From Eledone cirrhosa (Eukaryota), in NCBI GenBank assembly GCA_964016885.1, contig OZ024740.1, positions 370,884,001 through 370,948,000 on the forward strand: 64,000 nt of DNA, in the 5' to 3' direction. The notes under the pieces were generated by a model. The model had not been told where the DNA came from. It searched no databases and saw only the letters and a list, made by a program, of their open reading frames with translations. Position numbers and translations under genes: made by a program. Shown piece by piece: positions 29,558-30,345 of the stretch. Every line of letters begins with the position of its first letter. Position 1 is the first letter of the stretch.

Positions 29558-30345
29558 TTATAGATTCCATACGCTGGTGGCTTCCCTGTTTTATTGATGG
29601 CACGCACACACACACACACACTCTCTCTCTCTCTCTCTCTCTCTCTCTCTCTCTCTCTCCCTCTCTCTCTCTCTCTCTCTCTCTCTCTCTCTCTCTCTCT
29701 CTCTCTCTCTCTCTCTCTCTCTCTCTCTCTCTCTCTCTCTCTCTCTCTCTCTCTCTCTCTCTCGTGTGTGTTACCCTTTCAATATATTGAATTTTAAAGA
29801 GCTCAGGATTCCTTTTCCTTTGAGCACATAATTTACAGGGAATAACGAGGGTCTATGGCTCCGTTAATTTATCGTGATATTTCGCTCCTTATAACAGTCT
29901 TTCCTCTCTCTCTGTTTAGTTGAGCACATCTCTCTGGGTGGTTTTGGGGCTGCCCTTTCTAGCAGGTTGTCCCTCAGATACCACTGGTTCACTGCCCTAC
30001 GCACTCTGTCACATCTCTCTGCCGTGTGTTGCTGGACGGTTGTCTTAGATTTTCTTAGAGTTGTCTGGAATGATTTGTCTTGCACGCGCTGATGACCCAT
30101 AGGCGACTCCATTTCAGTCAACAATTTTTTGGCGAAACAGATCTCTTTGGATTTGTACGCGTGTGTTATATAGTTATAGAGGTGCGTATATGCATTTTAA
30201 TTTATATTTTCAATTATTGTGTGTCTACCCTGCCTTCCATAGGTTATAGATTCCATACACTGGTGGCCTCCCTGTTTTATTGATGGCACACACACTCTCT
30301 CTCTCTCTCTCTTTCTCTCTTGTGTGTTACCCTTTCAACATATTG
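29558..30345 (+). mobile_element. Non-coding hammerhead-containing element with terminal direct repeats (retrozyme-like), inserted in (TA)n
   Basis: 29558-29789 is repeated at 30244-30345, differing mainly in CT-tract length. HHR at 30082-30164. TA tracts on both sides. Confidence 0.7.
30082..30164 (+). ncRNA. Type I hammerhead ribozyme motif with full stem III
   Basis: gcacgcg-CTGATGA-ccca...tggc-GAAA-cagatct(cttt)ggatttg-TA-cgcgtgt: 7-bp stem I, 8-bp stem III, GUA site at 30155-30157. Confidence 0.82.

What the first reader, a model, noticed from the sequence alone, without database searches (positions are those of the whole stretch)
29558..30345. 686-bp non-coding unit + terminal direct repeat with a near-canonical hammerhead, inserted in (TA)n
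Seen: a monomer plus ~100 bp of the next unit, with TA tracts on both sides. The HHR has a 7-bp stem I, an 8-bp stem III and a GUA site; the main defect is a C-C mismatch at the base of stem II. The layout matches the 615-bp array: the cleavage site lies ~86 nt (vs ~105 nt) before the unit boundary and the insertion ends 100-150 bp into the next unit, yet the sequences look unrelated. Inference: a second family of the same kind of non-autonomous ribozyme retroelement, copied from a circular or tandem RNA template.
Basis: partly seen in the sequence, partly recalled or inferred. Interest (0 to 1): 0.75.

Follow-up and report, generated by a model that had tools for sequence, protein, structure and literature searches.

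The report
Hammerhead-bearing Penelope-type hitch-hiker repeat
This stretch is one old copy of a non-coding repeat present in thousands of copies in this animal genome; it carries a hammerhead-ribozyme-shaped motif and was probably pasted into a TA microsatellite by the enzymes of Penelope-like jumping genes, so it is a new family of an already described kind.

Summary
Window 29558-30349 is a 1.15-unit copy of a dispersed non-coding repeat lying in (TA)n. It has a hammerhead (HHR) design: CUGAUGA, GAAA, GUA| at 30157/30158, 8-bp stems I and III, and C.C at 10.1/11.1.

The motif is not chance: 0 descriptor hits in 300 simulated windows. Rfam does not call it, and cleavage is untested.

The 686-bp spacing is a family unit of 538-541 bp inflated by (CT)71.

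About 3,000 first-look candidates exist. Copies show the published insertion signature of Penelope-like elements (PLEs):
- 5' truncation and partial tandems;
- head-to-head arms;
- an extension on one arm only;
- (TA)n targets.

3' ends fall at two AU-rich sites, U21 and U108. Thirteen of 14 outward pairs combine one of each.

The 10.1/11.1 mismatch is ancestral in the window's subfamily. A younger sister subfamily (82% identical, arrays of at least 4.3 units) has A-U there in 29 of 40 copies.

The "microsatellite" is the loop of a conserved hairpin in a structured 3' module.

No ORF and no autonomous partner were found. RNA evidence could not be obtained.

Verdict: a new family of metazoan retrozyme-type, PLE-mobilised elements. 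This copy has one HHR, so it would be a dead end.

The parts
29536..29557 (.). (TA)n target tract on the 5' side of the insertion
   Evidence: Read directly. The first family bases, TTATAG at 29558-29563, overlap TA-like sequence, so the junction is ambiguous by a few bases.
29558..29603 (+). 5'-truncated start of the copy: block B (U472-517), which forms the 5' strand of the long-range helix of the 3' module
   Evidence: Repeated at 30244-30289 with 2 mismatches. In the U-a sample, five 5' ends lie between U472 and U497.
29604..29772 (+). (CA)n(CT)n(GT)n tract expanded to 169 nt; in the family it is a hairpin of about 22 nt with a CA/GU stem and a CU loop
   Evidence: TRF reports (CT)71.5 at 29621-29763. 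Most copies carry about 20 nt here. The hairpin is predicted in both subfamilies, and its substitutions keep the pairs.
29773..30243 (+). Unit body U1-471, including the two preferred 3'-end sites U21 (about 29793) and U108 (29880), both read through in this unit
   Evidence: Matches at 89-93% identity to 40 of 40 scored genome copies.
30081..30165 (+). Type-I hammerhead-like motif: stem I 30081-30088/30158-30165; CUGAUGA 30089-30095; stem II region 30096-30133 (C.C at its base); GAAA 30134-30137; stem III 30137-30144/30149-30156; predicted cleavage 30157|30158
   Evidence: (0 of 300 simulated windows). Rfam gives only Hammerhead_3 at 15.8 bits, E 0.49, on a 126-nt slice.
30244..30289 (+). Second block B (U472-517), start of the terminal direct repeat
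30290..30328 (+). Second (CA)n(CT)n(GT)n hairpin tract, 39 nt
30329..30349 (+). Terminal partial unit U1-21, ending at the family's 'U21' 3'-end site ..CAACATATTGTAT|(AT)n
   Evidence: Twenty of 45 arms of at least 150 nt end at U14-24. The exact junction 21-mer occurs 542 times in the genome, against 4 for the control.
30350..30364 (.). (TA)n target tract on the 3' side
   Evidence: (TA)3 lies within 14 nt of the 3' end in 31 of 36 main-class arms, against 4.3% of random window 14-mers.

Best explanation
Window 29558-30349 is one old, single-armed, 1.15-unit insertion of a high-copy, non-coding repeat with a unit of about 540 nt that carries a type-I hammerhead-shaped motif. It was probably inserted into a (TA)n tract by target-primed reverse transcription (TPRT) carried out in trans by Penelope-like-element (PLE) enzymes.

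Shown here:
- the motif and its non-chance design;
- thousands of copies;
- 3'-anchored, 5'-truncated copies in (TA)n;
- two preferred 3' ends (U21, U108) at unpaired AU-rich sites;
- head-to-head arms that combine one end of each kind;
- arms and arrays longer than one unit;
- no ORF.

Inferred:
- The nicked (TA)n end would anneal by AU/TA microhomology to one of the two AU-rich sites. These sites flank a structured 3' module: block B, the CA/GU hairpin with a CU loop, two further hairpins and a long-range helix.
- The PLE-type reverse transcriptase would copy an RNA with no fixed end, either a circle or a multimer. The second DNA end would prime the inverted arm.
- The hammerhead is predicted to cut multimeric transcripts at GUA|C into unit RNAs that a host ligase could circularise, as in the published retrozyme model.

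This copy has only one hammerhead, with a C.C at 10.1/11.1 and a weakened stem II. It would therefore not release a unit RNA itself.
For: Motif. There is one descriptor hit in the window, with 8-bp stems I and III, and 0 in 300 simulated windows. Core boxes plus UH are intact in 32 of 36 U-a copies and 40 of 40 U-b copies.

Copy number:
- 3027 and 2757 first-look candidates for the two subfamily queries; these may overlap;
- U108|(AT)4 junction, 1078 exact matches;
- U108 read-through, 641;
- U21|(AT)4 junction, 542;
- HHR 27-mer, 470;
- reversed-pattern controls, 0-4.

Ends, in 30 loci. Of 45 arms of at least 150 nt, 20 end at U14-24, 16 at U105-110 and 9 elsewhere. (TA)3 lies next to 31 of the 36 main-class ends, against a 4.3% background. 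The 5' ends are spread from U1 to U497.

Pairs. On the part of contig C1 covered by both listings, 13 of 14 outward-facing neighbour pairs are U21/U108 mixed. About 46% would be expected if ends were drawn at random, which I work out to about 3e-4. In 5 of 14 inverted pairs the partner arm is the closest of 33-46 copies.

Longer than one unit. Twenty-three of 56 arm segments exceed 560 nt. The U-b array L062 1962-4312 has 4.3 units that are 98.0-99.6% alike and ends at U108|(AT)n.

HHR evolution. U-a and U-b are 81.6% identical overall. Both keep the core. Stem I pair 3 changed from G-C to A-U on both sides. The interior of stem II is rewritten.

3' module. The same fold is predicted in both subfamilies, with z -2.3 and -2.5. 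RNAalifold, run on 32 of 55 available modules, gives 40 pairs; one is a subfamily-level compensatory pair (U.G to A-U), and the other subfamily-level changes are one-sided and keep the pair.

Literature. The PLE insertion signature (5' truncation, partial tandems, adjacent inverted 5'-truncated copy, a tail at one end only, (TA)n targets for Naiads) is described in Craig et al. 2021, PMC8557442 (passages read). The retrozyme model and the PLE hypothesis are in PMC7229834 (abstract, passages and discussion read) and in Li et al. 2026, 10.64898/2026.07.22.740005 (abstract and section 14 read).
Against: No RNA or cleavage evidence was obtained.

Rfam finds no hammerhead at the gathering score or at E<=10 over 1.1 kb. 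On a 126-nt slice it gives only a 15.8-bit type-III-model hit.

The unconstrained fold does not adopt the HHR: the minimum free energy is -26.9 kcal/mol against -22.6 for the HHR-constrained fold, with z -0.93.

10.1/11.1 is unpaired in 31 of 34 parsed U-a copies: A.C 19, C.C 9, U.C 3.

There is no covariation within the family; 289 of 500 shuffles do as well. The HHR region is no better conserved among copies than the rest, 5.0% against 3.5-5.9% divergence.

Between subfamilies, two pairs are lost: stem I pair 8 and stem III pair 4. The compensatory stem I change consists of two CpG transitions, which are easy to get by chance. The A-U at 10.1/11.1 in U-b is also a CpG C-to-T change.

There is no pile-up of 5' ends at the predicted cleavage product end U386: 1 of 45 arms, at U394.

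No autonomous partner was identified. Thirty GIY-YIG loci of 10,595 candidates lack any U-like tail, and no PLE ORF is contiguous with U in the 56 family loci screened, 30 U-a and 26 U-b.

Nine of 14 inverted pairs do not have the partner as nearest copy.

All loci were chosen as the best matches to the queries, so the sample is biased towards complete units.
Confidence: 0.7

Rival explanations
1. The hammerhead is an inert relic. The family would move as a SINE-like passenger recognised only through its structured 3' module. Arms longer than one unit would come from read-through transcripts of tandem DNA copies or from template jumps, with no ribozyme cutting and no RNA circle.
For: The mismatch at 10.1/11.1 is ancestral to the window's subfamily. 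Rfam does not call the motif. There is no covariation or extra conservation among copies. No 5' ends cluster at U386. Between subfamilies the 3' module (B 91%, tail 86%) is better conserved than the HHR region (68%). Craig et al. note that Naiads thrive without canonical HHRs (PMC8557442, passage read).
Against: Both core boxes, the GUA site and stems I and III survive 18% divergence between subfamilies, while the stem II interior is rewritten. All 40 copies of the young expanding subfamily keep the core, and 29 of 40 have a standard A-U at 10.1/11.1. An axolotl retrozyme HHR with a U.U mismatch at the base of helix II is described in PMC7229834 (passage read).
Confidence: 0.3
2. It is a fragment (solo pLTR or 3' end) of an autonomous Penelope-like element, not a separate non-autonomous family.
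For: PLE pLTRs carry type-I HHRs and form partial tandems (PMC8557442). Xenopus retrozymes match PLE pLTRs (Li et al. 2026, section 14). One PLE family here also ends in (TA)n, as ..CTCCCTGTTTTCAT|(AT)n, and shares a 10-mer with block B.
Against: No PLE ORF is contiguous with the unit in the 56 family loci screened, 30 U-a and 26 U-b. The one adjacent PLE fragment (L006/L061) is separated from it by a (TA)n tract. Thirty GIY-YIG loci hold no U-like sequence except a separate mini-insertion of about 70 bp in L035. The unit repeats on itself every 538-541 bp in arrays with no coding part.
Confidence: 0.07
3. It is a local DNA-level duplication or satellite that arose by slippage or unequal exchange in a microsatellite-rich region.
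For: Microsatellites lie on both sides and inside the copy, and the internal (CT)n has clearly expanded in place.
Against: Copies are dispersed over many contigs with unrelated flanks. 3' ends are sharp at two sites, with graded 5' truncation.
Confidence: 0.02

Closest known systems
Metazoan non-LTR retrozymes (Cervera and de la Pena 2020, PMC7229834; abstract, passages and discussion read)
   Same: A non-coding repeat with a type-I HHR in each unit. It occurs as tandem or partial-tandem copies and co-exists with PLEs. A circular or multimeric RNA is the proposed template for a borrowed reverse transcriptase. An axolotl variant also has a mismatch (U.U) at the base of helix II.
   Different: The unit is about 540 nt, against the abstract's 170-400 nt. 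Most copies are dispersed insertions of 0.1-1.7 units rather than long arrays. Stem III is 8 bp and the stem II region is 38 nt. 10.1/11.1 is A.C, C.C or A-U, never the usual G-C as a family state. Expression, cleavage and circles are untested here.
Penelope-like elements and their pLTR hammerheads (Craig et al. 2021, PMC8557442, passages read; Cervera and de la Pena 2014, seen only as a citation)
   Same: The insertion anatomy matches: strong 5' truncation, partial tandems, an adjacent inverted 5'-truncated copy, an extension present at one end only, and a (TA)n target.
   Different: There is no RT/GIY-YIG ORF. The one-sided extension is 84-87 nt, against 30-40 bp. The canonical PLE HHRs seen in this genome's PLE loci are minimal forms with a very short stem III, unlike the 8-bp stem III here.
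Non-LTR retrozymes as PLE derivatives in vertebrates (Li, Clavereau and Pollet 2026, bioRxiv 10.64898/2026.07.22.740005; abstract and section 14 read)
   Same: The same thesis: retrozymes are non-autonomous dependants of PLEs.
   Different: Their evidence is co-occurrence and pLTR homology in Xenopus. Here no pLTR homology was found, and the link rests on the insertion footprints.
Plant LTR retrozymes (Cervera et al. 2016, PMC4918200; search listing and abstract only)
   Same: Non-autonomous, HHR-bearing, with terminal direct repeats and a circular RNA intermediate.
   Different: In plants the HHRs are type III, lie in true LTRs, and mobilisation is by Gypsy elements. Here the HHR has type-I topology, there is no LTR, and the end redundancy comes from over-length copying.

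Membership tests
Hammerhead ribozyme, type I | Conserved core CUGAUGA ... GAAA and a cleavable NUH triplet | tested here: met
   Window 30089-30095, 30134-30137, GUA at 30155-30157. Intact in 32 of 36 U-a and 40 of 40 U-b copies.
Hammerhead ribozyme, type I | Three helices around the core, with stem I open and stems II and III closed | tested here: inconclusive
   Stems I and III have 8 bp each in the right register. Stem II has only 3 proximal pairs (10.2-10.4) plus an irregular extension, and free folding does not predict it.
Hammerhead ribozyme, type I | G10.1-C11.1 pair at the base of stem II | tested here: not met
   C.C in the window. U-a: A.C 19, C.C 9, U.C 3, A-U 2, G-C 1 of 34 parsed. 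U-b: A-U 29, A.C 11 of 40.
Hammerhead ribozyme, type I | Score above the gathering threshold of an Rfam hammerhead model | tested here: not met
   No hit in the whole window or at E<=10 in 1.1 kb. Hammerhead_3 scores 15.8 bits against a threshold of 48.5 on a 126-nt slice.
Hammerhead ribozyme, type I | Self-cleavage | not testable with these tools
   This needs an in vitro transcription assay, or RNA ends in vivo.
Metazoan non-LTR retrozyme | Non-coding unit without LTRs | tested here: met
   The longest stop-free frame in a unit dimer is 110 aa. tblastn with 291 open frames from PLE loci gave only short hits: one of 34 aa at E 6e-4, the rest at E >= 0.003.
Metazoan non-LTR retrozyme | Tandem units, each with an HHR, so that two cuts release a unit RNA | tested here: inconclusive
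   The window copy has one HHR. One of 30 U-a loci has two direct HHRs 539 nt apart (L025). Six of 26 U-b loci have 2-4.
Metazoan non-LTR retrozyme | [quoted passage not shown] | not testable with these tools
Metazoan non-LTR retrozyme | Co-existence with PLEs | tested here: met
   GIY-YIG (PF01541): 10,595 first-look candidates, and all 150 scored are over the cut-off.
PLE-type insertion (signature of Craig et al. 2021) | Fixed 3' end with variable 5' truncation and partial tandems | tested here: met
PLE-type insertion (signature of Craig et al. 2021) | Adjacent inverted 5'-truncated copy, with an extension at one end only | tested here: met
   Met for the family: 13 of 14 outward pairs combine a U21 end with a U108 end, the latter 84-87 nt longer. 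The window copy itself has no inverted partner within 1.5 kb.
PLE-type insertion (signature of Craig et al. 2021) | (TA)n microsatellite target | tested here: met
   31 of 36 main-class 3' flanks against a 4.3% background. The window copy has TA tracts on both sides.
Autonomous Penelope-like element | RT plus GIY-YIG ORF contiguous with the repeat, or unit co-linear with a PLE pLTR | tested here: not met
   No contiguous ORF in the 56 family loci screened, 30 U-a and 26 U-b. No U-like tail in 30 of 10,595 candidate PLE loci. This sample is small, so pLTR ancestry stays open.

The most novel reading that the evidence does not exclude
The copies are a natural record of how a Penelope-type enzyme copies a ribozyme circle. 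The nicked (TA)n end anneals by microhomology to either of two unpaired AU-rich sites that flank a conserved RNA module. The two DNA ends of one break use different sites, giving asymmetric head-to-head arms. The loop of the module's hairpin seeds new (CT)n microsatellites. The hammerhead works without a G10.1-C11.1 pair and was 'repaired' to A-U in the lineage that is now expanding.
Probability: 0.25. Interest if true: 0.6.

Novelty: new member of a known kind. Interest (0 to 1): 0.4.

Why it matters
Retrozymes and their suspected dependence on Penelope-like elements are already in print, so the class is not new. This family adds three things.

First, it gives a clean, countable footprint: two 3'-end sites, a pairing rule met by 13 of 14 pairs, and TA microhomology. 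This makes the still-unproven copying step of PLE-type reverse transcription testable.

Second, it gives a natural series of hammerheads with A.C, C.C and A-U at the position that is normally G-C, ready for cleavage assays.

Third, it shows a mobile-element hairpin loop acting as the seed of large (CT)n microsatellites.

For genome annotation, it explains a recurrent 540-bp repeat next to TA tracts.

Tried and rejected

2. Type-III reading of the motif. The Rfam Hammerhead_3 hit uses an upstream GATTTGTC as the stem III strand. That leaves 9 nt for stem I, and the upstream word is not conserved in the family majority. Rejected.

3. Alternative stem II, GUCA/UGGC, which would pair C11.1 with a G. 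It has 4 weak pairs, was seen only in constrained folds, and the alignment gives it no support. Not pursued.

4. Covariation within the family. None beyond shuffles, because the copies are too alike and decay neutrally.

5. ADAR-type A-to-G hypermutation. No copy shows a strand-biased excess.

6. Similarity to the 615-bp unit and to PLE proteins. None found.

7. Autonomous partner. Thirty GIY-YIG loci and the flanks of the 56 family loci screened gave nothing contiguous. A shared 10-mer, TCCCTGTTTT, between block B and the 3' terminus of one (TA)n-targeting PLE family, and a shared ATATTGTAT word, are leads too short to count.

8. A possible 17-nt remnant of a U108-type inverted arm upstream of the window copy (about 29509-29527). 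It matches only GTGATAT plus TTT, so I treat it as chance.

9. Circular fold of a U-b monomer: -127.8 kcal/mol against -109.2 +/- 5.8 for 30 mononucleotide shuffles. It forms stem I but no rod. Uninformative.

10. Earlier scan notes, looked up by place and by sequence, returned nothing for this locus.

11. A literature search for 'hammerhead ribozyme' plus 'octopus' found 5 papers (4 listed); none of the listed titles or abstract openings concerns cephalopod retrozymes.
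Full report
1. What is in the window.

A 46-nt block (29558-29603) recurs at 30244-30289 with two mismatches. The repeat finder gives 82-nt copies 686 bp apart. TA tracts flank both ends.

The spacing is misleading. Between the first block and the body lies (CA)n(CT)71.5(GT)n, 169 nt long. The second copy of this tract is 39 nt, and most family copies have about 20 nt.

I define the unit U as window 29773-30289, 517 nt. With the short tract, the family period is 538-541 bp. 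Homology to the family continues to about 30349 (U21). The copy is therefore B + expanded tract + one full unit + tract + U1-21.

2. The hammerhead motif.

The parts are:
- CUGAUGA at 30089-30095;
- a 38-nt stem II region;
- GAAA at 30134-30137;
- an 8-bp stem III with a CUUU loop;
- GUA, ending at 30157;
- an 8-bp stem I, of which two pairs are wobbles.

A loose sequence pattern is not significant by itself: 6 matches against 3.6 expected. A structural descriptor is. It hits once in the window and 0 times in 300 simulated windows.

Against this:
- Rfam reports no hammerhead at gathering, or at E<=10 over 1.1 kb.
- On a 126-nt slice, only the type-III model scores, at 15.8 bits and E 0.49. It uses an upstream word that the family majority lacks.
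- Free folding prefers another structure: -26.9 kcal/mol against -22.6 for the constrained HHR fold, with z -0.93.
- The base of stem II is C.C.

3. A large dispersed family.

The 491-nt body found 3027 first-look candidates. All 40 scored matched at 89-93% identity, on many contigs.

Exact-word counts over the whole genome:
- HHR 27-mer, 470;
- U108 junction with (AT)4, 1078;
- U108 read-through, 641;
- U21 junction with (AT)4, 542;
- reversed controls, 0-4.

There are more 3' junctions than hammerheads, as expected for 5'-truncated copies.

Copies differ from the column majority by a median of 3.9%. The window copy differs by 7.0%.

The unit has no long frame and no similarity to PLE proteins.

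4. Insertion anatomy.

In 30 loci I separated 56 arm segments. Of the 45 that are at least 150 nt long:
- 20 end at U14-24 (..CAACATATTGTAT|);
- 16 end at U105-110 (..TTTATCGTGATAT|);
- 9 end elsewhere, mostly in or just after the internal tract, or at other TAT-like sites.

(TA)3 follows within 14 nt in 31 of the 36 main-class ends, against 4.3% of random 14-mers. The 5' ends run from U1 to U497, with clusters at the internal tract and in block B.

Twenty-three of the 56 segments exceed 560 nt, and the longest is 903 nt. The template was therefore longer than one unit.

Many loci hold a second, inverted arm head-to-head. From the listed exact junctions on contig C1, 13 of 14 outward-facing neighbour pairs combine one U21 end with one U108 end. 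About 46% would be expected if ends were drawn at random.

In 5 of 14 inverted pairs the partner arm is the most similar copy in the sample. In the other 9 it is not, with ranks from 2 to 29. At least part of the pairs are therefore single events.

The window copy is a single U21-type arm with no inverted partner within 1.5 kb.

5. Match to published PLE footprints.

Craig et al. 2021 (PMC8557442, passages read) describe:
- a high degree of 5' truncation;
- partial tandems that form pLTRs;
- an adjacent inverted 5'-truncated copy;
- a 30-40-bp tail, often at one end only;
- (TA)n as the preferred target of Naiads.

All five features are met by this family. The only difference is that the one-sided extension is 84-87 nt.

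PLEs are abundant here: 10,595 GIY-YIG candidates, and all 150 scored are over the cut-off. One PLE family in my sample also ends in (TA)n.

The link to PLE enzymes is an inference from footprints. No partner was identified.

6. A younger sister subfamily.

The U108 read-through word revealed tandem spacings of 538-539 bp on C1.

That locus (L062 1962-4312) has 4.3 units that are 98.0-99.6% alike. They are only about 81% identical to the window's unit. The array ends at U108|(AT)n.

This subfamily, U-b, has 2757 first-look candidates. Its copies are 96-100% identical to the query, and several arrays have 2.6-4.3 units.

U-a and U-b are 81.6% identical overall. By region, block B is 91% identical, the tail U25-108 is 86%, and the HHR region is 68% because the interior of stem II is rewritten.

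The core boxes and the GUA site are intact in 40 of 40 U-b copies.

Between subfamilies:
- stem I pair 3 is G-C in U-a (23 of 34) and A-U in U-b (38 of 40);
- stem I pair 7 goes from G.U or A-U to A-U;
- 10.4/11.4 goes from A-U to G.U;
- stem I pair 8 and stem III pair 4 are lost;
- 10.1/11.1 is A.C 19, C.C 9, U.C 3, A-U 2, G-C 1 in U-a, and A-U 29, A.C 11 in U-b.

The caveat is that this change, and both halves of the compensatory stem I change, are CpG transitions.

Within U-a there is no covariation beyond shuffles, and no extra conservation of the HHR.

7. A structured 3' module.

The stretch from B to U108 folds alike in both subfamilies, with z -2.3 and -2.5. The features are:
- a long-range helix between UUCCCUGU in B and ACAGGGAA at about U62-70;
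- a hairpin whose stem is the CA/GU part of the 'microsatellite' and whose loop is the CU run;
- two further hairpins;
- unpaired AU-rich stretches at exactly the two 3'-end sites.

RNAalifold, run on 32 of the 55 modules available, keeps 40 pairs. One is a subfamily-level compensatory pair, U.G (14) against A-U (16). The other subfamily-level changes are one-sided and keep the pair. The method favours structures that fit the alignment, so this is supportive only.

The fold explains the composition of the tract. It also explains why its CT part expands to 50-170 nt in several copies, including the window's.

8. Mechanism.

Shown: the anatomy above.

Inferred:
- A PLE endonuclease cuts (TA)n.
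- A 3' DNA end anneals by TA/AU microhomology to U108 or U21.
- Reverse transcription runs round a circular or multimeric RNA and stops at variable points.
- The other DNA end primes the inverted arm at the other site.
- The hammerhead is predicted to cut multimeric transcripts from arrays or twin-HHR copies into unit RNAs that a host ligase could circularise. This is the model in PMC7229834 (discussion read).

The lack of 5' ends at U386 argues against linear cleaved monomers as the usual template. It is neutral between circles and uncut multimers.

The window copy, with one HHR, a C.C mismatch and a degraded stem II (UUUUUUGG where the majority has CUUCCUGG), would be a dead end.

9. Relation to the 615-bp array.

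There is no sequence similarity. The array (about 33807-42559) also lies in (TA)n and also ends at an internal ..TAATAT|(AT)n site about 0.23 unit into the next unit.

The shared layout is thus the common insertion rule, not homology. The '86 nt before the unit boundary' is a property of where this copy's 5' end happens to lie.

10. Novelty.

The class is known: PMC7229834, and Li et al. 2026, which links vertebrate retrozymes to PLE pLTRs.

A search for 'hammerhead ribozyme' with 'octopus' found 5 papers (4 listed), and none of the listed titles or abstract openings concerns cephalopod retrozymes. This is one search of the held library, not proof of absence.

Earlier notes of this scan report the same two-ended, head-to-head, TA-targeted pattern for other families of this genome. 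I reproduced it independently for this family.

I rate it a new member of a known kind, with useful mechanistic detail.

11. Limits.

There is no RNA data. Loci are the best-scoring matches, not a random sample. First-look candidate numbers are not copy numbers, and those for the two subfamilies may overlap. Supplements of the papers were not opened.

Noticed in passing
window 33807-42559: Array of about 14.2 units of 615 bp. The 14 complete copies are 100% identical in the 300-nt register tested. The array is inserted in (TA)n and ends at ..CTTTCTAATAT|(AT)n. Its core-like word reads CTGATAGA, not CUGAUGA. It has no similarity to the unit studied here.
   Followed up: partly
window 24666-25006 and about 25560-25720: Another repeat family. 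One head-to-head pair (arms 98% complementary) and one single copy each carry CTGAYGA..GAAA and end at ..TTAATATCGTAT|(AT)n. They share the word ATATTGTATTTT with the U21 end site of the family studied here.
   Followed up: partly
L035 2100-2172: A mini-insertion of the same family, about 70 bp long (end of block B + tract + U1-21), inside a long TA tract. It is an extreme case of 5' truncation.
   Followed up: partly
L031, L032, L034, L042, L055; L061 2035-3494: A PLE family whose 3' tail ends ..CTCTTTCTCCCTGTTTTCAT|(AT)n, so it also targets (TA)n. Its last bases share TCCCTGTTTT with block B of the repeat. In L061 a 5'-truncated copy lies head-to-head with a repeat copy across a (TA)n spacer.
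   Followed up: partly
L010 2011-2616: Two arms or units at one locus are clearly more diverged (84-86% to the window unit) than the adjacent full unit (90%). No A-to-G bias was seen, and the difference is unexplained.
   Followed up: partly
window 49890-50089: A run of 200 N (assembly gap) directly before an (AAG)59.7 tract at 50090-50268.
   Followed up: no
window 6044-6444, 53586-54051 and other sites: Many copies of a tRNA-like SINE of about 170-200 bp, some in tandem pairs and some as inverted pairs across the window. Rfam's only gathering-level hit is a tRNA-like match at 20744-20797.
   Followed up: no
window 59833-61753 and 53028-53587: A 46/137-bp satellite (42 copies) and a 31-bp tandem repeat (18 copies).
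   Followed up: no
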